37,118 nt of DNA from a virus. Taxonomy: Duplodnaviria; Caudoviricetes. This document shows positions 1 through 37,118 of the stretch, piece by piece. The translations under genes and the position numbers were made by a program. The stretch lies in the IMG/VR virus record IMGVR_UViG_3300005805_000219, positions 1-37,118 of that record; one strand, 5' to 3'. The notes beneath the pieces were generated by a model. That model did no database searches. It had not been told where the DNA came from and worked only from the letters and a program-made list of their open reading frames with translations. The number at the start of each line of letters is the position of its first letter. Positions within the stretch are counted from its first letter, which is position 1.

Positions 1-34
1 ATATACCGATAGGCCTGTTGTCAATCCAGACATA

Positions 35-295
35 CTAAATGTTCAGGTTCAATACGAAGCAGGTAGTGGTCAATGGATAAATTGTTGCTTCAACATTAGC
101 TGCTGCATAATCTTGATGAAATTCAATAGCAACTGAATTATCGCCAAGTCCAGCAACACGTGTACGAGCAGTTGAACCAAATGCGGTTGTTTCTACAACA
201 TCGTCATTTGTTGTTAAAGTAACACTTGCAATGTGGTCAGAAAGATTGACTGCATTGATAGTGATATATGCGTTTGTAAGAACTAAACGGGCCAT
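35..295 (-). pseudogene. Truncated duplicate of tail tube protein gene (contig-edge copy of 36333-36740)
   Basis: Matches the 36333-36740 protein up to ATIYPL, then runs into ~70 bp of unrelated sequence. Confidence 0.8.
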
Positions 296-673
296 TATTC
301 GTCCGCTCCTTTTTCTATTACTGGTTTGGTTGGTGTATTACTTGATAGATGTTCACCCTTGACTAGCGCTTCTGGGTTACAACCTGCATCGAGCAATTCT
401 TTTTCAGTGACTTGGTCACCTTTTTTCTTATCTCCGAATACAAAATTATCGGACTTTATTGTATATGACATTATGCTCCATCTCCATATATGGTTACTTG
501 GTATCTGTATGATAAATATTCAACATCAGCAGCTTGGTAAACTCCTGATTGAGCCGCAGTAACTCTAAGCGTATCGACTTCTCCACCGAGAGTACGATCT
601 GATTCAATTGCTGCTTTTATTGAATAATCTCCTGAACCAGAAAGATATTTGTCAAGTTTGTCTTGTCCAGTGC
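74..673. repeat. Terminal redundancy copy A (diverged duplicate of 36519-37118)
   Basis: Aligns without gaps to 36519-37118 at offset 36445. Differences are mostly third-codon, and the last 85 bp (589-673) are identical. Confidence 0.95.
295..471 (-). CDS. Small hypothetical virion-module protein, 58 aa (not in ORF track)
   Basis: MSYTIKSDNFVFGDKKKGDQVTEKELLDAGCNPEALVKGEHLSS...GADE. Start and stop overlap the neighbouring genes, and the ORF is conserved in the second copy at 36740-36916. Confidence 0.8.
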   Translation of the reverse strand: MSYTIKSDNFVFGDKKKGDQVTEKELLDAGCNPEALVKGEHLSSNTPTKPVIEKGADE

Positions 674-3928: not shown

Positions 3929-5374
3929 CTACTCCACCTCGTATGCTGCTTTAGGATCCGTTGGATCTATTGTTGAAATTGGTTGCAATTGATTTGAAGG
4001 CAAACCCGTGTGATTCATGTCAGGTAAACCAACAGCTTCAATTACTGATTTTGGATCAAAACCTACTTGAATTAACTTGGCGGCAATATCGGCGCGAAGG
4101 TTTAGACCCACATCTTTTGCGTCCGCTGCATCGATATTTTGCAATGGAACTCGGTACTGATCTCCAGATTCTCCAAGAGGTGCTAAATCTTCTACATAAC
4201 GGACATCGTTCAGACTTAAGAAGCCTTCACGTAGACCTTTTGTATATGCATCATAACGCTCAATTGTTGTTCCACGCAGTAAAGCATCTAAATTAAACTT
4301 AATAAAACCATCTGGTTCAGGAAGCAAAGGCGATAGTGCTTGCTCTAATCTTTCAAGCAACGGTCTTAGCGAGTGTTGTACAAATGATAAGTTCTGAGCT
4401 TCAACAGATGCAAATGACATTGCGCCAGCAACAGGGTGGCCAAGCAGTGATACAGGAACACGAAATAGTCTAGCAATTTCTTCTACACCAAATCGTCGTA
4501 CTTCTAGTAGTTGTGCATCTGCAGCATTCAGAGTTAGTGGCTTAAATGTTGCGCCACTAGTTAAAATGCCAAGTTTTCCTGCGCGATAAGGTCCTGTGTG
4601 TGACATATTCCAGTTACGAGCAATATCAGCGGCTTGTTCTTCAGTCATTTCACCTGGAGATTCAATAACTCCACCAGGATTTGCTGCATTTCCAAAATAA
4701 CTTGCTGCATAAACTTCTGCGGCCATAGCAGAACCTAAAGTGATGCGAGCTGCTGCAATTGGGCCAAGTCCAAGCAATTGTCCTGGCAACTTAAACATAG
4801 GAATGTGTAGCATTTCGTTCTTTGTCAGAACCATTGTTTTTACTGACATTGGATCAAACGGTTGTGCATTGTCATAAAACTGATTTACTGGATCTTGTGC
4901 ATTTTGTCCAATAGTAACTATGTATTCAATCTCGCCCATTGGATCAGGACGACGAATACGAACTTGGAGTGGGTTTATGCAGTAAAGTTCTTGAACGTCG
5001 CCCAGATCGTCACGTACCGTTAAAATGAATGCATTGCCATGAAGGTTTAGAGAAGAAATTACTTGCTCATAAAACTCTAAGCGAGTTGAGTCAGGATTTG
5101 GTTTGTTAATCCATGCAGGCATTTCACCATATACTGATGCATAATTTATTCTAGAACGACCACGACGGACGTAAGCAGAAAGTGGTAGAGAACTAATAGT
5201 GTCACCTAATAGTCGGACACAAGCATAGACAGTTGACATACGAATTGCTGTATCAGAGTTGACATCTACTCCAGCTGGAGTTGCATATAAAGCGCGGCCA
5301 GGTAAAAATGGTTCAAGGTACTGATTGTTTGACCTTTTTTCTCCTGCTTTACGCAGTCTATTCGATAGACTCAT
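3929..5374 (-). CDS. HK97-family portal protein
   Basis: VYACVRLL, LHGNAF, EEIARLFRVP, FNLDALLRG motifs. Confidence 0.95.
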   Translation of the reverse strand: MSLSNRLRKAGEKRSNNQYLEPFLPGRALYATPAGVDVNSDTAIRMSTVYACVRLLGDTISSLPLSAYVRRGRSRINYASVYGEMPAWINKPNPDSTRLEFYEQVISSLNLHGNAFILTVRDDLGDVQELYCINPLQVRIRRPDPMGEIEYIVTIGQNAQDPVNQFYDNAQPFDPMSVKTMVLTKNEMLHIPMFKLPGQLLGLGPIAAARITLGSAMAAEVYAASYFGNAANPGGVIESPGEMTEEQAADIARNWNMSHTGPYRAGKLGILTSGATFKPLTLNAADAQLLEVRRFGVEEIARLFRVPVSLLGHPVAGAMSFASVEAQNLSFVQHSLRPLLERLEQALSPLLPEPDGFIKFNLDALLRGTTIERYDAYTKGLREGFLSLNDVRYVEDLAPLGESGDQYRVPLQNIDAADAKDVGLNLRADIAAKLIQVGFDPKSVIEAVGLPDMNHTGLPSNQLQPISTIDPTDPKAAYEVE

Positions 5375-6450
5375 TTATCTGCCTTTTCTGTGCTTAGTTG
5401 ATACCAGCCGTCGTCCCATAGAGTCAACAACCTTTGAAAGTAATCTTGATACTTAGGTGCAATTGCTTTAAGTGAGTATTTTTCTATTGCTTGCTTTCTA
5501 ATAAAATCTCTGTCAAGATCTTTTACATCTTCTGCAGCTTTGATAAAGTCCGCAAGAGATCTACATCTAAAACCAGTAATTCCATGGATATTGGTTTCTG
5601 TAAAAGCTCCCCAATCCGTTGTGATTGTTGGAGTTCCACAAGTCTGAGCTTCTACTACTATATTTCCAAATGGTTCAATATAAGTAGTAGGGGCAAATAA
5701 TGCAATGGCATTTCCCATTAGTTTTGCTCGTTCTTCAGGGCCAATATTGCCTATAAACTCGCCATAACCGGTGCCTCTTTCATCACCTGGACCTGCCAAA
5801 ATTAACCGTTTGCCTAATCGTTCACATACTTCTTGAGCAATTCTAAAACCTTTTCGCTCAATCATGCGGCCAATATAAAAGTAATAGTCACCTTTTCCTG
5901 AGCCTTTTGGAAACATTTCCGGTTCAAGATAACCATTTATAACGCCATCAAAAAATTCACCATCAACCGTGGTCGGATTCTTATAAGCTGCATAGATTGA
6001 ATGCATCCATGCATAAGATTCAAACACACGATATTTTGCAAAAGTGCCACCATAACCGATACCAAATTCTACTGACATGTGATCTGGAAAAGCATCTGCA
6101 ATCGGTTTGTGAGCATATCCACCAATAAGACAAATAAAGTCTTTTGGTTGAAGTCTATTAGTCATTTCTTTAATGACATTCCCATTAAAGATTTGCCAAT
6201 GCGGTAAAGTTGTATCAAATGAAGCAGAAGTATAATGATTATTACCAACTGCCGCTTGTCTTTCGTTTTCTGAAATACAAGTTACTAGTTCTGTTACTGA
6301 TGCTTCATTTTCTGATCCGGCATAAAGGATGACTTCATGCTCAAGATCTTTCATCATGATGCAGAAGCGCCTAACTTTTTCGGTGAATGCGCAGCTTGTA
6401 AAGTCTTTAGTCGTGTTTGTGTGTGGAAGCGATACAACGTGAAATCTCAT
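5371..6450 (-). CDS. GT-B fold glycosyltransferase (GT4-like)
   Basis: GRMIERKG and EPFGNIVVEAQTCGTPTITTDWG (EX7E) motifs. ATG at 6450 follows a GGGGGA RBS. Confidence 0.9.
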   Translation of the reverse strand: MRFHVVSLPHTNTTKDFTSCAFTEKVRRFCIMMKDLEHEVILYAGSENEASVTELVTCISENERQAAVGNNHYTSASFDTTLPHWQIFNGNVIKEMTNRLQPKDFICLIGGYAHKPIADAFPDHMSVEFGIGYGGTFAKYRVFESYAWMHSIYAAYKNPTTVDGEFFDGVINGYLEPEMFPKGSGKGDYYFYIGRMIERKGFRIAQEVCERLGKRLILAGPGDERGTGYGEFIGNIGPEERAKLMGNAIALFAPTTYIEPFGNIVVEAQTCGTPTITTDWGAFTETNIHGITGFRCRSLADFIKAAEDVKDLDRDFIRKQAIEKYSLKAIAPKYQDYFQRLLTLWDDGWYQLSTEKADK

Positions 6451-6470
6451 TGGTCCCCCGACCTTGTTCA

Positions 6471-6698
6471 CTAGAGTGCAGCGATTTCTTCTGCTGTAAG
6501 CCCAAGAGCTGCAAGTTTTGCTTCTGCTGAGGCTTTGGCAATCGCTTTGGCCTCTTCTTCTAATTTGCGTGCTTCATCTCTAGCAGCCAATTCATCAGCA
6601 ACTTTTTTATTTGCTTTGATTTCTTCTTCTGTAAAAGGACGTCGTATAACTTCACCAGTTGTGCAATTAACTTCGACGACCATAGGTTCTTCGTTCAT
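6471..6698 (-). CDS. Hypothetical protein (possible fibre chaperone/assembly factor)
   Basis: 75 aa with helical C-terminus AKLAALGLTAEEIAAL. AAGGAG RBS. Confidence 0.7.
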   Translation of the reverse strand: MNEEPMVVEVNCTTGEVIRRPFTEEEIKANKKVADELAARDEARKLEEEAKAIAKASAEAKLAALGLTAEEIAAL

Positions 6699-16683: not shown

Positions 16684-16807
16684 GGCGTTTGCCTTTCTGT
16701 TTTGCTTTGCAATCGTTGCAAAAATGAGGATTACCCATGAGTTTATCTAATGCGTATAAATAAGTCCATGCCCCACATGCTTCACATCTAGCAACTGGTT
16801 CAGTCAT
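16673..16807 (-). CDS. Small zinc-finger protein, 44 aa (not in ORF track)
   Basis: MTEPVARCEACG...FCNDCK. Fills the gap between adjacent genes. Confidence 0.6.
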   Translation of the reverse strand: MTEPVARCEACGAWTYLYALDKLMGNPHFCNDCKAKQKGKRRVA

Positions 16808-17609
16808 TGATTTTACCTGCCAAGAATCTTTCGAAACGAGTCAATTGATCTGGTATGTTGCCTTTGAGAATAGATCTTGCGGTATGACTGATTTCACCAA
16901 TGCTATTTCCGGTCCACATAGGCTCGTAATCTTTGAATGAGCCATTAAAGTAGGCTTTAATCCATTGTGCTTGAGGTATGTGTTCATCATAAATGTGTAA
17001 ACTACCTACAACATGCACATATTGACCCATTTCAATGTCTAAAGCTTTTGCAATTGCACCTTGTAGAGCAATAAATTGTGTTAAATCATATGGAAGACCT
17101 AAAAATACGTCGTTGCTTCTCATATTAGTTCTAGCAATCAATTTGTTATCTCTGATAAAATATTGCAAGTTCAAGGTACATGGAACATCTTTAACATCAA
17201 CGTTAAGATCTTTATTTGAGTCAAATATAGTCAAAACAGCTTGTCTGGTTGAATAGTCTTTTTTCAATTGCTCAACAAGTTTATTTAGATTACCGTGAAT
17301 TCGTGGACCATAAGCGCCATGGAGAATGCCACCATCCATGTACTTTCCAAACACTTGACTTGTATCTGTCATTGCTTCTGGATCAGTAACTTGTCCAACT
17401 AGTTGTAATGCTTCTTTAATGCCAATATTATGGTTTAGTTTACGGTTTTCCATAGACACAGGTATGTTCCATGGCTTTTCAACCTGTAAAGTAACATTTA
17501 GAAGCTCTCTGGTAACCATTCCACGAGGTGAAATTGCCTCACCATGTTCAATCACATATTGAGTTGCAAGTTCTAAAGCTTCACTTGGATTTTCTGTAAT
17601 TATATGCAT
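16800..17609 (-). CDS. Thymidylate synthase-superfamily enzyme, probably dCMP (hydroxy)methylase
   Basis: GAYGPRI, TRQAV, catalytic DVPCT, MRSNDVFLGLPYD (Asp where ThyA has Asn), GSLHIY. Confidence 0.85.
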   Translation of the reverse strand: MHIITENPSEALELATQYVIEHGEAISPRGMVTRELLNVTLQVEKPWNIPVSMENRKLNHNIGIKEALQLVGQVTDPEAMTDTSQVFGKYMDGGILHGAYGPRIHGNLNKLVEQLKKDYSTRQAVLTIFDSNKDLNVDVKDVPCTLNLQYFIRDNKLIARTNMRSNDVFLGLPYDLTQFIALQGAIAKALDIEMGQYVHVVGSLHIYDEHIPQAQWIKAYFNGSFKDYEPMWTGNSIGEISHTARSILKGNIPDQLTRFERFLAGKIND

Positions 17610-18052
17610 TACCTAACCACCTCACTATGGATTATTTTTTTGTCTAAATATCGAACTTGTCTAAATGCTTCTACAAATAAAGATCTAGAATGCAAAACAA
17701 AATCTATTTGCATTTCTTCGCCTCTTCTTAATAATTCTTCAGCAATTGCATCTTCAGATCTTGTAAGTAGGATTAGTCTAGCACCTAACTTAGCAAGTTC
17801 CCAATTACAATAGTCAAATGTCGTTTCATCAAATAGTGATTGTCGACCGTATATTTTAGGCCATACAACTTCACCTAAATGCCAACGATCTAAAATCATA
17901 TTTGGTGAGGTAATTGGTCGGATATATTCATCAGACCATAACCTTGTTTTTGGTTGTTCAGCATGTAAATATTTTGCATTAAATCGTTCAGATAATTTTT
18001 GAGCATAAGTAGTTTTACCTGTACCATCTGCGCCTTCGATAATGGTAATCAT
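17609..18052 (-). CDS. Deoxynucleoside monophosphate kinase (dTMP kinase-like)
   Basis: P-loop EGADGTGKTT and ILDRW motif. Confidence 0.85.
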   Translation of the reverse strand: MITIIEGADGTGKTTYAQKLSERFNAKYLHAEQPKTRLWSDEYIRPITSPNMILDRWHLGEVVWPKIYGRQSLFDETTFDYCNWELAKLGARLILLTRSEDAIAEELLRRGEEMQIDFVLHSRSLFVEAFRQVRYLDKKIIHSEVVR

Positions 18053-18936
18053 CTAAACTCACCCCATTCTCTAAAACTATCGACTTGTGAATGGACCATT
18101 GTAACTGGTTTTACGTCACCTGCTACATTCCATACTAAAGTTGATGCTGTTTTAGGTGCTGCTGTTTTGTCCAACATAAATCTTTCTAAACCTTTGCAAT
18201 CATAGGTTGGTGCTGAGTCAATTTCTTCATTGATCTTGTCTGCATAGTCAGCTTTTTCTCTGAAACCTTTATGGTACGTTGCAACGTCCGCTCTTCCGAT
18301 TTCACCTGGATGTAGATTTCTTGCAACTGCGACTCCGTGGAAGATGGCATTTGGCCATGCAATTTGTAAAGTTCTTGTAAGTACTCCTGTACTAATGACT
18401 GATACAACATCTCTTGGTTCATCTCGATCTCCCCATTGTTGGATTGTTGATTTGACTCCAGCTGCGACCACTAATGGATGATCCAATCCAAAAGGTACGA
18501 ATTGAGCATTGTTTTCATTTGCCCAATCTTTTGCGTATTTGTTTAGAACTGGCATTGCTGCGATTCTTCGAAAGATTGGATTTGCTCCTCTTTCAATACA
18601 AACAAGCTGATGGTCACTTACTACTTTTGAGGAAGGCATAAACAATGTTAACTTTTTGTTATATTTCTTTGCAAGTGCGGCTAATGATACTCCTGCCCAA
18701 CCAACTCTAGGTTGGACATATACCAAATGATCTGATTCCATTGTTTTTACTAATAGATCTCCCCACCGGCCTTTTGTACCAACTCCTGTATTTGAATCGT
18801 CCCAAATAGTTGCACCATGGAATGTAGTTATATTTGGTGGTTGAGTTTCATCTGTCCAATCACCCGCAAGATCTAGCCATTCTTCTCTTGATTTGTGTGC
18901 ATACTTGCTTGATGTGTCCGTCGTTATCTTAAACAC
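18049..18936 (-). CDS. PLP-dependent enzyme, fold type II (Trp synthase beta/cysteine synthase-like)
   Basis: GTKGR (putative PLP Lys), GWAGVSLAALAKKY, LFMP, STGVL phosphate loop, YDCK, WNVAG. Confidence 0.7.
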   Translation of the reverse strand: MFKITTDTSSKYAHKSREEWLDLAGDWTDETQPPNITTFHGATIWDDSNTGVGTKGRWGDLLVKTMESDHLVYVQPRVGWAGVSLAALAKKYNKKLTLFMPSSKVVSDHQLVCIERGANPIFRRIAAMPVLNKYAKDWANENNAQFVPFGLDHPLVVAAGVKSTIQQWGDRDEPRDVVSVISTGVLTRTLQIAWPNAIFHGVAVARNLHPGEIGRADVATYHKGFREKADYADKINEEIDSAPTYDCKGLERFMLDKTAAPKTASTLVWNVAGDVKPVTMVHSQVDSFREWGEFR

Positions 18937-19981
18937 CGTGCGCCTCCAAATGTTTGTGGTAAGTCCAATGTTTCGTATGATTTGGTATAAGTGATTTGTT
19001 TGTTACCTGCCAAGGTTTCAAGTACTCATAACCTTTTGGTACATAACATTCAACATATCGGACGTAGTCGCATGCAACATCTTCAAGACTTAAACCTTTG
19101 CCTAGATTTCTTTCATGGTCACGAGAATCATACGGAGATCTAAACTCATTACAAATCTTTTCCATTGCAGCATCTAAAAAGTCTTTTTGCTTATAACCTT
19201 CGTTTTTGAACAATAGATTTAATGCTTCGATTGCATTCTTACCATAATTGACTTGACTCCATGGATCTATTAAATCAGGGAAATATTGTGCAATGTCCAT
19301 AACAAATGCAGTCATTACAAAATGAAAACACTTTAATCCATTTGACCTGTGCCATTCGTTAATCCAATCAACTCCTTCACGAATTGACATTGATAATGGA
19401 TTATAGGATAAATGAGTATAAAAATCTTTTACTAACCGTGGCATATATTCAGAAATGTATAATTGTGAACCACGTGGGTATTGATCCGTTGGTTTTGGAA
19501 ATTGTGGAATCTGATTGCCAATACTAGTAAATATCGGTCTACCTGATCTCATTTCACTCAAAACATAATTCCTCATGTGAATCATATTATCTGCATTTAT
19601 AGCCATATCAGCTAAAATGCTATTTCTAAATCCATGGTCGTAACTGAATGATGCTCCTGATCCGGTAACTCTATGAATCATAAACAAATAAAACCAGTCC
19701 ATTGCATGTAAATTGTAATTGTCAAAACGTTTATCTACTTGCCACTTCTTTGGATTGTTTGATCCGTACCAAATCTGTTGAATTGCATTACTAAATCCGG
19801 CAAACTCACGGTCAACTGTGTCATAAATTGTAATGTGATGTTGTAGCGGATCATCTACATGCAAATCTTCAGTAGTATCACGACCATTTGGACTTGCAAT
19901 GTTGATTGTTTGCAAGACGACGGCTTTATCGTAATATTGCTTAAAGTCTTCCCAATAGATTGTCTCAATAATTTGGGGCAT
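18929..19981 (-). CDS. aGPT-Pplase1/5-hmdU DNA kinase helical-domain-like DNA-modifying enzyme (putative)
   Basis: Motif order IYDTVDRE...FVMD...YGKNAIEAL...LEDVACDYVRY resembles this helical superfamily, and the gene context fits. Confidence 0.5.
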   Translation of the reverse strand: MPQIIETIYWEDFKQYYDKAVVLQTINIASPNGRDTTEDLHVDDPLQHHITIYDTVDREFAGFSNAIQQIWYGSNNPKKWQVDKRFDNYNLHAMDWFYLFMIHRVTGSGASFSYDHGFRNSILADMAINADNMIHMRNYVLSEMRSGRPIFTSIGNQIPQFPKPTDQYPRGSQLYISEYMPRLVKDFYTHLSYNPLSMSIREGVDWINEWHRSNGLKCFHFVMTAFVMDIAQYFPDLIDPWSQVNYGKNAIEALNLLFKNEGYKQKDFLDAAMEKICNEFRSPYDSRDHERNLGKGLSLEDVACDYVRYVECYVPKGYEYLKPWQVTNKSLIPNHTKHWTYHKHLEAHGV

Positions 19982-20963
19982 TTTTCACCAAATCCCATTC
20001 ATAAAACTCTGGAGATAAATGTACGGATCCAGGTTTTTCCATATAAGTTTTAGCATAATCTTCAGGATCTATGATGTACCAATTTGTTGGCCACTCGTGT
20101 ACGTTCTCAAATTGATATTTCATTTCGTTAGTCATAATGCCCATCAGTCTATCTCTTGATGGCCAAGACCCATAAAATGCTGTTCCCTTATAGAATCCAG
20201 TCTTAGGTATTTTTCTTTCTTCATGCTCAATTGGATATGGAGCAGTTACCTCAAAAGTTCCTATTTTTCCTGTTTGTTGTAACCACTCAAGTTGAATTTT
20301 TAGTGTAGTAACTAGTTTTCTTGCCGCTCCTTCTGGATCTAATTGCCGGCATAAATGATGACGAATGTCGACATTGCCTGCATAAATAACTAAATGCGGC
20401 ACAAAATAGTCAGGTAAATATGAACTGACTCCTCGTTCAGTTAATCCGTGAAGTGTCAAACCGTCATGGCGATAAACAACAGTGTTTGCTCTATATCTAG
20501 AAATTGAATGTGAGTCACCAATAACTACTCGTTGAATATCTAAAACTAGATCTTCATGCTTAATTACTTCACATTTCATTAGATCACGAATCTTAGACCA
20601 TTCTGATTCAGTAAAATCAAAATCAGTTTTTGCAGCACGTGGACGCAAGATTCTTTCAATGTCTCCAATTGGCATGTCCAAAGCTTTGATATTTACAAGA
20701 TCCATATCCAATACTCTGGCAATTCTATCTCTTGTTTCTCTAGTATAACCACCAAATAGATTAAAAACTTCACCTTTGAACTCCATTGGCGTTGATACTA
20801 ACCATGTGCCTTCTTTGACAAGTTCGTCATTATTAAAAGCAATTTCAGATTTAGTATTGAAAGCATTGTCGACCATACATTTCTGCATTCTTGGCCAAGC
20901 AGATCTATGACTAGCAATTCGATCTGTAAATGAAGTAACTACATCATCTAGTATGTATCTCAT
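19965..20963 (-). CDS. SGNH-hydrolase-fold protein of unknown function in modification cluster
   Basis: VVIGDSHS (block I), YAGNVD (block III), GSVHLS (block V). Confidence 0.55.
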   Translation of the reverse strand: MRYILDDVVTSFTDRIASHRSAWPRMQKCMVDNAFNTKSEIAFNNDELVKEGTWLVSTPMEFKGEVFNLFGGYTRETRDRIARVLDMDLVNIKALDMPIGDIERILRPRAAKTDFDFTESEWSKIRDLMKCEVIKHEDLVLDIQRVVIGDSHSISRYRANTVVYRHDGLTLHGLTERGVSSYLPDYFVPHLVIYAGNVDIRHHLCRQLDPEGAARKLVTTLKIQLEWLQQTGKIGTFEVTAPYPIEHEERKIPKTGFYKGTAFYGSWPSRDRLMGIMTNEMKYQFENVHEWPTNWYIIDPEDYAKTYMEKPGSVHLSPEFYEWDLVKNAPNY

Positions 20964-21391
20964 TCTATATGCTCACAAGCAATAGGAGTACAAAGAACAG
21001 CTGCATCATCAAAAGCTCGTCCACAAGTTTTACACTTGCCTTCAACTCCATCGTAACCAGCTAATTGACGTTTTGCATTTTTCTCTGCTTTTGCAAAATA
21101 AACATCTAAGATTTCTTGTTCATTGACATTTGTTACAAGAATTAAATTGCACCAAAAGTGAAGTACATCAATCATTTCTCCAATAAATGCCAACCGATTT
21201 ATATGTCTACTAGTAGCCCATGGCTTCCAACCAGTTTCATTCAAAGCCTCATGCAATTCGTCTGTCAATGCTAATGACATGTCACGGATATACTGAGCTC
21301 TTTCTTCGTCATTCAGAGTGGTAACGTCCACTCCATATGACTTAAGTTGTAGTTTTCTTTGATTGTCCAAAATCATTTGTAAAGCACTCAC
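20960..21391 (-). CDS. All-alpha dimeric dUTPase/dCTPase (T4 gp56-like)
   Basis: DELHEAL...WKPW...EMIDVLHF...YFAKAEKNAKRQ..GY. Confidence 0.85.
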   Translation of the reverse strand: MSALQMILDNQRKLQLKSYGVDVTTLNDEERAQYIRDMSLALTDELHEALNETGWKPWATSRHINRLAFIGEMIDVLHFWCNLILVTNVNEQEILDVYFAKAEKNAKRQLAGYDGVEGKCKTCGRAFDDAAVLCTPIACEHIE

Positions 21392-21813
21392 GGTTTTACC
21401 TCCTGTTTTAGTGAAATATTAAATGTTCTTGCTAATTCAGCAATGGCACCGAGATCGTAAACCGTTCCATCTATCAGATCAGAATACATAACGGAAGTAA
21501 TTCCATAACTAGCAATTACTTTTATACATTCAGAACATGGATGATGCGTACAATACATATAGCCATTTTTTGTTTGATCTGGAGTGCAATAACGCAATGC
21601 GTTCACCTCTGCGTGTATTACAAAACCACGCCTAGCGTCCCTATCTTCCCACGGAATCGTGACGCCAGGCGCAGCCCCATTGTAGCCGATGCTTATTATG
21701 CTTCTATCCCCGCGTAGAACACATGCACCAACTTTTAGATATGGATCTTCACTGCGATAGGAGGCTGCTCTCGCAATCTCCAATCCATATTTGTCCCAAG
21801 ACATTCGAGTCAT
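21388..21813 (-). CDS. dCMP deaminase
   Basis: KVGAC, GYNG, HAEVNAL and PCSEC zinc motifs. Confidence 0.92.
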   Translation of the reverse strand: MTRMSWDKYGLEIARAASYRSEDPYLKVGACVLRGDRSIISIGYNGAAPGVTIPWEDRDARRGFVIHAEVNALRYCTPDQTKNGYMYCTHHPCSECIKVIASYGITSVMYSDLIDGTVYDLGAIAELARTFNISLKQEVKP

Positions 21814-25677: not shown

Positions 25678-26062
25678 TTTTGCCTCCTGGCGGTTTAGGT
25701 AAGCGGTTGCTTACAAGGACCAATATACACTGAATGTGGACAAATATCCACCATTTGTAGAAATGTTTCTAAAAGATCTTATTTACTAGAACATCTGTTC
25801 TGGCCGGTGGCACATAAGTTAACCAGAGCCACCAGGATCCACCAGGACGCGGGTCCATTTGTGGTGAGTATAAATATACTCGGATCGATATGTCCGTGGT
25901 CCTGGGACAAACCTGGCCGCTCGATCTGGACTAAACGGACTCCAAAAGGTTCCAAAAGGTTCCCATAAGATCTTATTCAATAGAGTGTACAAATACCGGT
26001 GGACAGTATTGAATGTACCTATGAGCAACCAACCGGTTGCCATAAACCGCCAGGAGAAAAAA
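25678..26062. promoter_or_regulatory. Divergent early control region (possible origin)
   Basis: Largest non-coding gap and the point where gene strands diverge. Contains AAGATCTTATT x2, TCCAAAAGGT x2, two AACC-loop hairpins and two AACCGCCAGGAG motifs. Confidence 0.75.
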
Positions 26063-26269
26063 ATGACTACAAACATCAAGAAAGTAAGTTGCTTAGTTTG
26101 TGATTGGTCAAGTGAATCACAAAATGATATTGAAAGCGCAAATCAATATGGTGAATGCTTAAATGTTTGCGATGGAACAGCAACATTACTTCGTTGGGAT
26201 TACACAGACGGTAATATTAGAATTAGTAATACATCAAATGGTGATTATGTTGATTTAGTCACAGAATAA
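26063..26269 (+). CDS. Small Cys-containing protein, 68 aa
   Basis: MTTNIKKVSCLVC...CLNVC. ATG preceded by AACCGCCAGGAGAAAAAA. Confidence 0.7.
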   Translation: MTTNIKKVSCLVCDWSSESQNDIESANQYGECLNVCDGTATLLRWDYTDGNIRISNTSNGDYVDLVTE

Positions 26270-26324
26270 GGACGAAACACTCCGCAAGGAGTGTCCAGTG
26301 TTAAATGACACTGCTGATGAGTCC
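26270..26324 (+). ncRNA. Type II hammerhead ribozyme
   Basis: GGAC-GAAA-CACTCC(GCAA)GGAGTG-TC-CAGTGTT(AAAT)GACACTG-CTGATGA-GTCC. All core nucleotides and three stems are present, with a GUC cleavage triplet at 26293-26295. Confidence 0.93.
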
Positions 26325-26351
26325 ATCAGAATAAATCGCCAGGAGGAAAAA

Positions 26352-27320
26352 ATGTCAGTACAAATCCAAAACGCAGCACGTCGCAAGGCTCCATGGATCA
26401 GTACAGCAACATGGGTAAATACAAGTGACGAGCAAATCTCTGCAGCTCAAGTTCTTGAGAATGCAAATCTTGATTGGGAAGTTCAACACACTCCACTTTC
26501 AACTACAGCAATTAACAATGACGGCGTGACAGTCGTCAAACTTCAAGACAAAGTTGCTACAACTCGTGTCAATAAGGACGGATCAGCTTCTGTTCTTGGT
26601 ATCACTTCTCCTACATATACAATTGTCCAGAATAACGACATCGTCAACATTGTGGACTCTGTTATGTACGAAGCCGGTGCAATTTACCAGTCAGCTGGTG
26701 AACTACGCGGTGGAAAAAAGATCTTTATGGCTGCAAAGCTTCCAGACACATTAGATCTTACTCTTAAGAATATCGATCCAATCGAATCATTCTTAGTTGC
26801 TTCAAATACTCACGATGGAACAGATTCACTTCGCTTTGAAATCAAGTATCTTCGCTTGATCTGCACAAACGGAATGACTCGTTGGACGAATGCTTCATCT
26901 ATTGCTTTCCGTCATTCAGCTCGTATGAGTGTCAAGATCGAAGATGTTCGTGAGACTCTAGGAGTTGTTCTTAAGTCAAATCAAGAGTTCAACCTTCTAT
27001 CTTCTGCTCTTCTTGAGAAGAAAGTTGCTAATTCTGACTTCTGGTCAATCGTCAAGGACGTTCTTCCACTAGATGAGAACAACATGACTGAGCGTCAACA
27101 GAATAATGTTCGTGAACGTCAGCAGACTCTTCTAGGTATCTGGAACGGACCAACTCAAGAAAACATCAAAGGAACTGCATGGGGAATTGTCAATGCATTC
27201 ACAGAGTACGAACAATGGACTCGTACAACTCGTTCAGCCAATGATTTTGCAGCTGGTGAGCGATTCATGATGAATCAAGGAACATCTCTCTCAGATCGAG
27301 TCTTGGAGATGGTTCGCTAA
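26352..27320 (+). CDS. DUF932/DUF945-family phage/plasmid protein
   Basis: ANLDWEV, YTIVQN, SAGELRGGKKIF, NTHDG, RLICTNG, GTAWGIVNAFTEY motifs. Confidence 0.85.
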   Translation: MSVQIQNAARRKAPWISTATWVNTSDEQISAAQVLENANLDWEVQHTPLSTTAINNDGVTVVKLQDKVATTRVNKDGSASVLGITSPTYTIVQNNDIVNIVDSVMYEAGAIYQSAGELRGGKKIFMAAKLPDTLDLTLKNIDPIESFLVASNTHDGTDSLRFEIKYLRLICTNGMTRWTNASSIAFRHSARMSVKIEDVRETLGVVLKSNQEFNLLSSALLEKKVANSDFWSIVKDVLPLDENNMTERQQNNVRERQQTLLGIWNGPTQENIKGTAWGIVNAFTEYEQWTRTTRSANDFAAGERFMMNQGTSLSDRVLEMVR

Positions 27321-27323
27321 GAC

Positions 27324-27366
27324 AAAAAGAAAAGAGCCCCTGCCGAAAGGCAGGGGCTTCTTTTTT
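27324..27366. terminator. Bidirectional rho-independent terminator
   Basis: AGCCCCTGCC-GAAA-GGCAGGGGCT stem with A-rich 5' and T-rich 3' flanks between convergent genes. Confidence 0.92.
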
Positions 27367-35943: not shown

Positions 35944-36333
35944 TTAGGACTTAGTGATTGTACCACTAATTGGCCAGGTTACTGATGCAGTTGCAAGTTC
36001 ACCAACGGCACCATTTAATGGTGTCCATTCTGAAACTAATGCGCTAAAACTATATGCAGGTGACGATCCAGCAACTGGACGAACTGTTATTGAAACTGCT
36101 GTTCCAAGTGTTGGATATACAGTTGCTTCTAAAGCTCCTCCTGCGTAATCTTGATTAAACTCAAAAGTTACACTATTATCTGCAAGACCAGCAACGCGAG
36201 TACGGGCGGTATTACCAAAAGCTGTAGTTTCTACAACATCGTATGTAGATCCTAAAGTCACAGAAGTAACATAAGATGAAATATCAGTTGCTCCAAAAGT
36301 AACAGCAACATTAGTTAAAACGATACGTGCCAT
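35944..36333 (-). CDS. Tail tube protein, paralog 2
   Basis: ETTAFG.TARTRVAGL, SEWTPLNGAVGELATASVTWPISG. Confidence 0.8.
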   Translation of the reverse strand: MARIVLTNVAVTFGATDISSYVTSVTLGSTYDVVETTAFGNTARTRVAGLADNSVTFEFNQDYAGGALEATVYPTLGTAVSITVRPVAGSSPAYSFSALVSEWTPLNGAVGELATASVTWPISGTITKS

Positions 36334-36740
36334 TATGAAACCGCCTTTGTTACTTCACCGCTGATTGGCCAAGTTACTGATGCAGTTGCAAGTTCTCCAA
36401 CAGCTCCGTTCAAAGGAGTCCATTCTGAAACTAAAGCTGTAAATGAGTAAGAAGGATTATCGGCTGCTGTTGTTGATCCATTTGGCTTTACTACAACTGC
36501 TGTTGTGTTACCAAGTAGTGGATAAATTGTTGCTTCGACGTTAGCTGCTGCATAGTCCTGGTGGAACTCAAGAGCAACCGAGTTATCTCCAAGTCCAGCA
36601 ACGCGCGTGCGTGCAGTTGATCCAAATGCAGTTGTTTCAATAACATCATCATTAGTTGTTAAAGTAACACTAGCAATGTGGTCAGAAAGATTAACTGAAT
36701 TGATTGTTATGTATGCGTTGGTAAGAACTAAACGGGCCAT
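36333..36740 (-). CDS. Tail tube protein, paralog 1
   Basis: Same motifs as the adjacent paralog. Follows the tail terminator module. Confidence 0.8.
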   Translation of the reverse strand: MARLVLTNAYITINSVNLSDHIASVTLTTNDDVIETTAFGSTARTRVAGLGDNSVALEFHQDYAAANVEATIYPLLGNTTAVVVKPNGSTTAADNPSYSFTALVSEWTPLNGAVGELATASVTWPISGEVTKAVS

Positions 36741-36916
36741 TATTCGTCCGCTCCTTTTTCTATTGCTGGTTTGGTTGGGACATTACCTGATAAATGGTCA
36801 CCCTTAATTAGTGCTTCAGGGTTGCAACCGGCATCAAGTAATTCTTTTTCGGTGATCTGGTCACCTTTTTTCTTGTTTCCGAATACAAAGTTATCGGACT
36901 TTATTGTATATGACAT
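36740..36916 (-). CDS. Small hypothetical protein (allele of 295-471)
   Basis: Same ORF with a few substitutions. Confidence 0.75.
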   Translation of the reverse strand: MSYTIKSDNFVFGNKKKGDQITEKELLDAGCNPEALIKGDHLSGNVPTKPAIEKGADE

Positions 36917-37118
36917 TATGCTCCTTCTCCGTATATCGTTACTTGATATCGGTATGATAGATATTCAACGTCAGCAGCTTGATAAACTCCTGATTGAGCT
37001 GAAGTAACTCTAAGTGTATCAACTTCTCCACCAAGAGTACGATCTGATTCAATTGCTGCTTTTATTGAATAATCTCCTGAACCAGAAAGATATTTGTCAA
37101 GTTTGTCTTGTCCAGTGC
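36916..37118 (-). CDS. 3' part of tail terminator gene (allele of 471-878, cut by window edge)
   Basis: Matches 471-673. Confidence 0.8.
   Translation of the reverse strand, partial: TGQDKLDKYLSGSGDYSIKAAIESDRTLGGEVDTLRVTSAQSGVYQAADVEYLSYRYQVTIYGEGA

What the first reader, a model, noticed from the sequence alone, without database searches (positions are those of the whole stretch)
26270..26324. Intergenic type II hammerhead ribozyme that would cut the early transcript just before DUF932
Seen: a complete core (CUGAUGA, GAAA, GUC) with stem I CAGUGUU/GACACUG, stem II GGAC/GUCC (open end) and stem III ACACUCC-GCAA-GGAGUGU. It starts at the base after the upstream stop codon and ends 27 nt before the DUF932 ATG. 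Cleavage after C26295 would give the DUF932 mRNA a 5'-OH end capped by the stem I hairpin. Inference: it controls stability or translation of an early host-takeover gene.
Basis: partly seen in the sequence, partly recalled or inferred. Interest (0 to 1): 0.82.

Follow-up and report, generated by a model that had tools for sequence, protein, structure and literature searches.

The report
Phage hammerhead ribozyme with core clamp
An intact hammerhead ribozyme motif lies between a swappable small gene and a fixed DUF932 gene in an uncultured phage; it likely cuts their shared messenger RNA in two, a layout known since 2011, and its short tail is predicted to fold back onto the catalytic core, probably keeping the second gene's ribosome site open after the cut.

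Summary
In detail: a complete type II hammerhead lies at 26270-26324, with the cut site after C26295. Orthologues keep all 17 pairs, 7 with compensatory changes. The element extends to 26269-26329. It lacks the Rfam-type pseudoknot. A U in loop I and the A before stem II, here the last base of the upstream stop codon, are near-invariant (149 and 151 of 156). The upstream slot holds 9 unrelated small genes in 35 sequences; one relative lacks both slot gene and ribozyme. The tail AUCAG can pair with the core. It covaries with core position 7 (38/2/0/23 in 64 phage members) and is predicted to out-compete the active fold by 2.8 kcal/mol. Best reading: a natural insulator that splits the two-gene transcript, with the clamp freeing the DUF932 ribosome site afterwards and slowing the cut. 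Cleavage and transcription were not shown, and 'host takeover' has no support. Phage type II hammerheads between variable genes are published (Perreault 2011); my searches found no paper on the clamp. This scan noted both before on other DNA (e1-3483521, e1-5915387).

The parts
25982..26035 (+). Conserved upstream block, the likely promoter region of the two-gene plus-strand unit (start site not mapped)
   Evidence: Near-identical in relatives with different slot genes and in L217; the sigma-70 scan gave no hit inside it
26044..26062 (+). First copy of the repeated ribosome-binding motif (AACCGCCAGGAG) before the slot gene
26063..26269 (+). Swappable slot gene, 68 aa, no family; the last A of its TAA (26269) is the A just before stem II
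   Evidence: No Pfam or PHROG hit; 9 unrelated families in 35 slots
26269..26324 (+). Type II hammerhead, pseudoknot-free class: A26269; stem II 26270-73/26321-24; GAAA 26274-77; stem III 26277-83/26288-94; cut after C26295; stem I 26296-301/26308-13; loop I U26302-G26307; core CUGAUGA 26314-20
26314..26329 (+). Clamp hairpin: CUGAUG 26314-19 paired with CAUCAG 26324-29, loop AGUC; incompatible with stem II
26333..26351 (+). Second copy of the ribosome-binding motif (Shine-Dalgarno AGGAGG 26341-46)
26352..27320 (+). DUF932 (TIGR03299-type) gene, 322 aa, fixed downstream partner
   Evidence: Pfam PF06067 146 bits against a cut-off of 23
27334..27359 (.). Bidirectional intrinsic-terminator-like hairpin closing the unit

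Best explanation
This type II hammerhead sits between a swappable small gene and DUF932 and likely cuts their shared early mRNA after C26295, so that DUF932 would get the same 5'-OH, hairpin-capped leader whichever gene fills the slot. Shown: the motif, its compensatory changes, the slot variation and the clamp covariation. Inferred steps: (1) The unit is transcribed from the conserved block near 25982-26035 to the terminator at 27334. (2) The active fold is held by a U26302-A26269 contact like the one in the sTRSV hammerhead, not by a pseudoknot. (3) After the cut, the freed core and GUCC strand pair with the AUCAG tail. This gives two stacked hairpins at the 5' end and stops GUCC from pairing with the Shine-Dalgarno site. 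(4) The same clamp competes before the cut and lowers the cleavage rate. (5) The 5' product keeps the stem III hairpin right after its stop codon as a protected 3' end. In effect it would be a natural RiboJ-like insulator.
For: Fold: 17 of 17 pairs are paired in all 8 distinct sequences, 7 with changes on both sides, spread over all three stems. Presence: the complete motif is in 32 of 40 DUF932 loci; the other 8 contigs start inside the gene (7) or inside the ribozyme (L032). One search adds L221-L223. Insulator logic: 9 unrelated slot genes in 35 sequences, stop codon ending at 0 (27), +1 (6), -2 and -3 relative to stem II. L217 (69% DUF932 identity) runs promoter-RBS-DUF932 with neither slot gene nor ribozyme. 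Contact: A at -1 in 151 of 156 and U first in loop I in 149 of 156 non-redundant members, neither specified in the search; this matches the U7-A(L4) pair described in PMC11875169. Clamp: TCAG in the first 15 tail bases in 37 of 170, against 2 and 3 in control windows. A dedicated search gave U7-A 38, U7-G 2, C7-A 0, C7-G 23 and one U7-U in 64 members, p 3e-15, whereas non-clamp C7 members have A at +1 in 24 of 41. In the 3' product the native tail ranks in the top 2 of 1024 five-base tails for openness of the ribosome site (0.73 against a median of 0.60). Precedent: tandem prophage hammerheads cut in vitro and in E. coli, and three Desulfovibrio type II hammerheads cut in cells.
Against: No cleavage, transcription or 5' end was shown. 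In the nearest-neighbour model the uncut RNA is almost wholly clamped (-24.4 against -21.6 kcal/mol; P(stem II) 1e-4), so cleavage needs tertiary energy that the model omits. About four in five members of the class have no clamp (29 of 156), so it is not essential. The gain in ribosome-site openness holds in only 13 of 20 clamp members (mean +0.08). The p-values are not corrected for relatedness. The 'no slot gene, no ribozyme' control is one locus. L034 has two slot genes with no ribozyme between them. A 5'-OH end can also trigger decay, as with glmS.
Confidence: 0.55

Rival explanations
1. The clamp is mainly a switch before cleavage. A ribosome ending on the slot gene's stop codon would cover A26269 and GGAC-GAAA, let the clamp form and delay the cut, so processing of the DUF932 mRNA would depend on translation of the slot gene or on a factor.
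For: The stop codon supplies the contact A and ends within -6..+1 of stem II in 66 of 85 members with a called upstream ORF; 99 were examined and 14 had no ORF. Stem II probability falls from 0.998 to 0.013 as the tail emerges. The native tail is the strongest of 1024 at suppressing stem II. The clamp fold is favoured by 2.6 kcal/mol in all four diverged orthologues tested.
Against: Stop adjacency is no commoner with the clamp (8 of 14) than without (49 of 71). The clamp is already about 99% formed without a ribosome in the model, leaving little to switch. Genome compaction plus the need for an A at -1 would explain the adjacency.
Confidence: 0.22
2. Cleavage destabilises the DUF932 message, as in glmS: the 5'-OH product is degraded, giving a short early pulse whose timing the clamp sets.
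For: glmS cleavage is followed by degradation (PMC6765202). That actinobacteria carry a 5'-exonuclease (RNase J) is recalled, not checked.
Against: The first base of the product is paired in a 6-7 bp hairpin followed by a second hairpin; glmS-type decay needing an unpaired 5' end is recalled. Many phages place such a ribozyme before most genes of an array, which fits punctuation better than silencing.
Confidence: 0.1
3. The conserved 82-bp spacer matters mainly as DNA, as a homology arm for swapping slot genes, and the inverted repeat is a protein site or a template-switch by-product; cutting is secondary.
For: Slot genes switch exactly at the motif's first base (a loose contig end at 26267). 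The repeated RBS motif on both sides of slot gene plus ribozyme would let recombination delete both, as seen in L217.
Against: Stem sequences change while pairing and core are kept, which points to selection on RNA structure. The clamp follows RNA pairing rules: U-G is tolerated and C-A is never seen. This role can coexist with the best explanation.
Confidence: 0.08
4. The ribozyme is a silenced relic, locked by the clamp.
For: P(stem II) is 1e-4 in the full RNA. Median P(stem II) is 0.013 in 29 clamp members against 0.47 in 127 others.
Against: The core and all three stems are intact with compensatory changes in clamp-bearing orthologues. Among pattern hits with the tail, 109 of 136 keep three stems.
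Confidence: 0.05

Closest known systems
Type II hammerhead ribozymes flanking variable genes in prophages (Perreault et al. 2011, PMC3088659; Rfam RF02276)
   Same: Same core and permutation (open stem II), intergenic position in a phage, non-constant neighbouring genes, proposed cutting into single-gene mRNAs.
   Different: No loop I-tail pseudoknot; 4-bp stem II and 6-bp stem I with a short loop; scores below the Rfam gathering cut-off (29.2 against 37); single copy; the tail pairs with the core. The passages read mention neither stop-codon overlap nor a clamp; the supplementary alignments were not read.
sTRSV and Schistosoma hammerheads with the U7-A(L4) Hoogsteen contact (as described in PMC11875169; PMC6155905)
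   Same: U seven bases after the cut and A just before the second strand of stem II.
   Different: There the A is the last base of a closed GNRA loop II; here loop II is open and the A is the last base of a stop codon. The contact is inferred from conservation only.
RiboJ synthetic insulator (hammerhead plus downstream hairpin; described in PMC8942793)
   Same: Removes variable upstream RNA to give a uniform 5' end, with a hairpin between the cut and the RBS.
   Different: Engineered. Its hairpin is described as a downstream part; here it is made from the catalytic core itself and competes with the active fold.
HHphage of haloviruses HF1/HF2 (PMC3088659)
   Same: Hammerhead just upstream of an early phage gene; a mapped 5' end lies within 3 nt of the cut site.
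   Different: Core-variant ribozyme in an archaeal virus; no slot or clamp described in the passages read.
glmS ribozyme
   Same: Self-cleavage upstream of a coding sequence leaving a 5'-OH.
   Different: A different fold, needs a metabolite cofactor, and leads to decay.

Membership tests
Hammerhead ribozyme class | Core CUGANGA, GAAA and NUH at a three-way junction | tested here: met
   invariant in 8 distinct orthologous sequences
Hammerhead ribozyme class | Three base-paired stems supported by covariation | tested here: met
   17 of 17 pairs, 136 of 136 cells paired, 7 pairs with changes on both sides; slid controls 21-49% paired
Hammerhead ribozyme class | Self-cleavage after N17 | not testable with these tools
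   Only contigs were available for 8 runs
Type II topology | Stems I and III looped, stem II open | tested here: met
   Rfam alignment
Rfam RF02276 Hammerhead_II | Gathering score of 37 bits | tested here: not met
   29.2 bits, E 0.0026
Pseudoknotted type II consensus (Perreault 2011) | At least 4-bp pseudoknot between loop I and the 3' tail | tested here: not met
   No enrichment in 156 members. Short class 4 of 38 against 2.9 permuted; long-loop class 32 of 43 against 10.7
sTRSV-type loop-loop contact | U at +7 after the cut and A before the second strand of stem II | tested here: met
   U26302 and A26269; 149 and 151 of 156; 34 and 34 of 38 in the less biased sample
sTRSV-type loop-loop contact | The Hoogsteen pair forms in three dimensions and speeds cleavage | not testable with these tools
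   Needs mutagenesis or a structure
DUF932 (PF06067) | Pfam gathering score of 23 | tested here: met
   146.1 bits
Host-takeover or anti-defence protein (for DUF932) | Sequence or fold relation to a characterised protein | tested here: inconclusive
   Model pLDDT 90.8; viral and Atlas neighbours are DUF932/TIGR03299 or unnamed

The most novel reading that the evidence does not exclude
A widespread phage subclass of pseudoknot-free type II hammerheads recruits the upstream stop codon into its tertiary contact and carries a covarying clamp on its own catalytic core. It would be a natural two-state ribozyme insulator whose cutting is gated by the terminating ribosome and whose product refolds to switch on the next gene.
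Probability: 0.2. Interest if true: 0.8.

Novelty: new variant of a known kind. Interest (0 to 1): 0.5.

Why it matters
What phage self-cleaving ribozymes are for is an acknowledged open question (PMC6155905; PMC6765202). This locus gives a clean natural experiment: one ribozyme, a fixed downstream gene, nine interchangeable upstream genes and a relative lacking both slot gene and ribozyme. The covarying clamp gives a specific, cheap test of whether these RNAs are plain cutters or two-state elements. It also shows that the Rfam type II model can miss a class making up about half of a phage sample (38 of 81). The ribozyme and its gene context alone are ordinary.

Tried and rejected
RNA evidence: 22 runs were listed and 8 laid, all as contigs. 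X1 looks like DNA (an 11-kb contig across both strands). The others gave 2-5x pieces, nearly all inside DUF932, with the most upstream starts at 26327 and about 26339, none at 26296, and none bridging the ribozyme. This is no evidence either way.

Pseudoknot between loop I and the tail: rejected. Extension of stem II with upstream GAUUUA: rejected, because that sequence belongs to the variable slot gene. Internal promoter at 26305-26332 (9 of 12 consensus matches): rejected, because the last base of the -10 hexamer is lost in L030, L033 and L034 and the hit count is near chance (9 against 5.4 +/- 2.0). The longer ORF start at GTG 26298 inside the ribozyme is not favoured, as the Shine-Dalgarno site and most homologue lengths fit ATG 26352. 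No second hammerhead was found in the window or within about 2.5 kb in relatives.

DUF932 function: Foldseek PDB gave nothing at E <= 0.001, VIA-align best Z was 5.0 at rmsd 4.0 over 122 residues, and the search listings for DUF932 (13 papers) and TIGR03299 (2 papers) showed no functional study (listings only). Distant DUF932 loci at 43% and 28% identity (L228, L229, L232) have no hammerhead. DUF932 follows such a ribozyme in 4 of 132 downstream ORFs, 2 from this clade, so the link is not specific. A link between clamp and longer downstream ORFs is borderline (median 181 against 85 aa, n 12 and 64, p 0.05) and is not relied on.

Literature searches that showed no description of the clamp or stop-codon overlap. 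Most subscription journals are not covered, and the supplementary alignments of Perreault 2011 were not read.

Full report
Context. The window is a near-complete siphophage genome of 41% GC with HK97-type head genes and a WhiB gene. Its terminase is closest to Pontimonas phage phiPsal1 (47%), so an actinobacterial host is inferred. Nearly all genes are on the minus strand. The plus strand carries one two-gene unit: a 68-aa orphan (26063-26269) and DUF932 (26352-27320; PF06067 146 bits), closed by a bidirectional terminator-like hairpin (27334-27359). Both genes, and two minus-strand genes, share a ribosome-binding motif. That the unit is early is inferred from its position at the divergent promoter region.

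Observation. A loose type II descriptor finds this site only, with 0 hits in 40 simulated windows. Rfam gives Hammerhead_II at 29.2 bits, E 0.0026, under the cut-off of 37. Of 40 DUF932 loci, 32 hold the whole motif, 7 contigs begin inside the gene and 1 begins inside the ribozyme. A profile search added L221-L223 with the motif, L217 without it, and three distant loci (43% and 28%) without it. Many of these loci are near-identical and not independent. On 8 distinct sequences all 136 cells pair and 7 of 17 pairs change on both sides, including two in stem II.

Structural class. A pattern fixing only the core and the GGAC/GUCC stem gave 146 loci, with about 410 stretches estimated for the collection, reduced to 156 non-redundant ribozymes. 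A precedes stem II in 151, U opens loop I in 149, and a 6-bp stem I is intact in 151; pseudoknot potential equals the permuted control. A search not fixing the outer stem II pairs gave 81 non-redundant members in two classes. The long-loop class (43) has mostly 3-bp stem II and pseudoknots (32 against 10.7 expected). The short-loop class (38) has mostly 4-bp stem II, no pseudoknot excess (4 against 2.9), and the U and the A (34 each). The U is seven bases after the cut and the A sits where the last base of loop II would be. This is the pair described for the sTRSV and Schistosoma structures in PMC11875169 (passages; O'Rourke 2015 seen only through it). The contact is inferred. Here the A is the last base of the slot gene's TAA.

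The slot. In 35 sequences (the window and 34 loci; L034 was left out because its last slot gene failed my start rule) the gene before the ribozyme falls into 9 unrelated families of 46-104 aa. Its stop ends at 0 (27), +1 (6), -2 or -3 relative to stem II. L217 goes from the conserved promoter block straight to DUF932 with neither gene nor ribozyme, the outcome expected from recombination between the two RBS repeats (inference). L034 has two slot genes with no ribozyme between them. Across the class the upstream stop ends within -6..+1 in 66 of 85 members with a called ORF, of 99 examined. Downstream genes are mostly small orphans, and many contigs hold 2-5 copies within 3 kb. Cultured Streptomyces phages Rooney, Gibson and Wentworth carry the same class; the Gibson stretch shows at least six hammerhead-like spacers in 8 kb, none with the clamp tail.

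The clamp. The tail AUCAG is invariant in the orthologues while stems and later bases change. It pairs with CUGAUG and excludes stem II. Predicted energies are -24.4 against -21.6 kcal/mol, and P(stem II) drops from 0.998 for RNA ending at 26325 to 1e-4 for the full leader. The tail occurs in 29 of 156 members against 1.8 after shuffling, and in 8 of 38 short-class against 0 of 43 long-class members. A dedicated search leaving core position 7 and the facing tail base free gave 136 hits, 109 with three stems and 64 non-redundant: U-A 38, C-G 23, U-G 2, U-U 1, C-A 0, across at least 10 stem II variants. In genomes 13 of 70 hits had three stems, and the 12 non-redundant ones showed the same trend. 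Without the tail, C7 members have A at that place in 24 of 41. Relatedness is not corrected for. The native tail is the strongest of 1024 at suppressing stem II, and in the 3' product it is among the top 2 for ribosome-site openness; the family-wide effect is weaker (13 of 20).

Mechanism. I commit to a self-cutting insulator (0.55). It splits the two-gene message, leaves a hairpin after the slot gene's stop, and gives DUF932 a constant 5'-OH leader of two stacked hairpins and an open Shine-Dalgarno site, with the clamp also slowing the cut. Shown: motif, covariation, slot variation. Inferred: transcription, cleavage, tertiary contact, clamp role, effect on expression. The rivals are a ribosome-gated switch (0.22; weakened because stop adjacency is 8 of 14 with the clamp and 49 of 71 without), glmS-like decay (0.10), a DNA-level recombination arm (0.08, compatible as a side role) and a relic (0.05). 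The RNA runs did not decide. DUF932 folds confidently but has no characterised relative in my searches, so 'host takeover' stays a guess.

What is known. Perreault 2011 (PMC3088659, passages; supplements not read) describes type II hammerheads flanking non-constant prophage genes, shows activity, proposes single-gene processing and notes members without pseudoknots. PMC8782182 (passages) shows three type II hammerheads active in Desulfovibrio cells. PMC6155905 and PMC6765202 (passages) call the function open. PMC8942793 (passages) describes RiboJ. Searches showed no paper on the clamp or the stop-codon overlap; most subscription journals are not covered. Earlier notes of this scan report the same locus type in a related phage and the clamp in another. 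I had the clamp before reading them, and they are not independent support.

Verdict. The feature is real and is a hammerhead of type II topology, but not a match to RF02276 at its cut-off nor to the pseudoknotted consensus. It is a new variant of a known kind. Interest 0.5.

Noticed in passing
window 16800-21813 (-) and 5371-6471 (-): Cluster of thymidylate synthase-like, thymidylate kinase-like, weak PLP-enzyme-like, two unknown, nucleotide pyrophosphohydrolase and dCMP deaminase genes, plus a glycosyltransferase. It resembles a modified-base pathway; the resemblance is recalled, not tested.
   Followed up: no
window 1-673 and 36445-37118: The ends overlap: the last 85 bases repeat 589-673 exactly and 74-373 is 87% like 36519-36818, suggesting a circular genome of about 36.4 kb assembled from strain variants. 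Two tandem major-tail-like paralogues lie at 35944-36740.
   Followed up: partly
window 25118 (-), 25692 (-), 26048 (+), 26337 (+): An extended ribosome-binding motif ending in CGCCAGGAG precedes four genes around the divergent region. The spacing of the minus-strand copies varies among relatives, hinting at more swappable slots without ribozymes.
   Followed up: partly
L365 (Streptomyces phage Gibson MK305891.1, 53223-61277): At least six unannotated hammerhead-like spacers of the pseudoknot-free class lie between small genes of a cultured phage, a ready model system.
   Followed up: partly
L041-L044, L049, L050, L057-L059, L073, L091: Arrays of 4-6 type II hammerheads, each just after one small gene and just before the next ribosome site.
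   Followed up: partly
run X1, record 4, on window 26293-26330: A contig carries a related hammerhead with a different stem III but the same stem I, core and tail.
   Followed up: no
L137:2-241 (-): One member of the class precedes an ArdC N-terminal-domain gene, echoing the ardA association in Perreault 2011.
   Followed up: no
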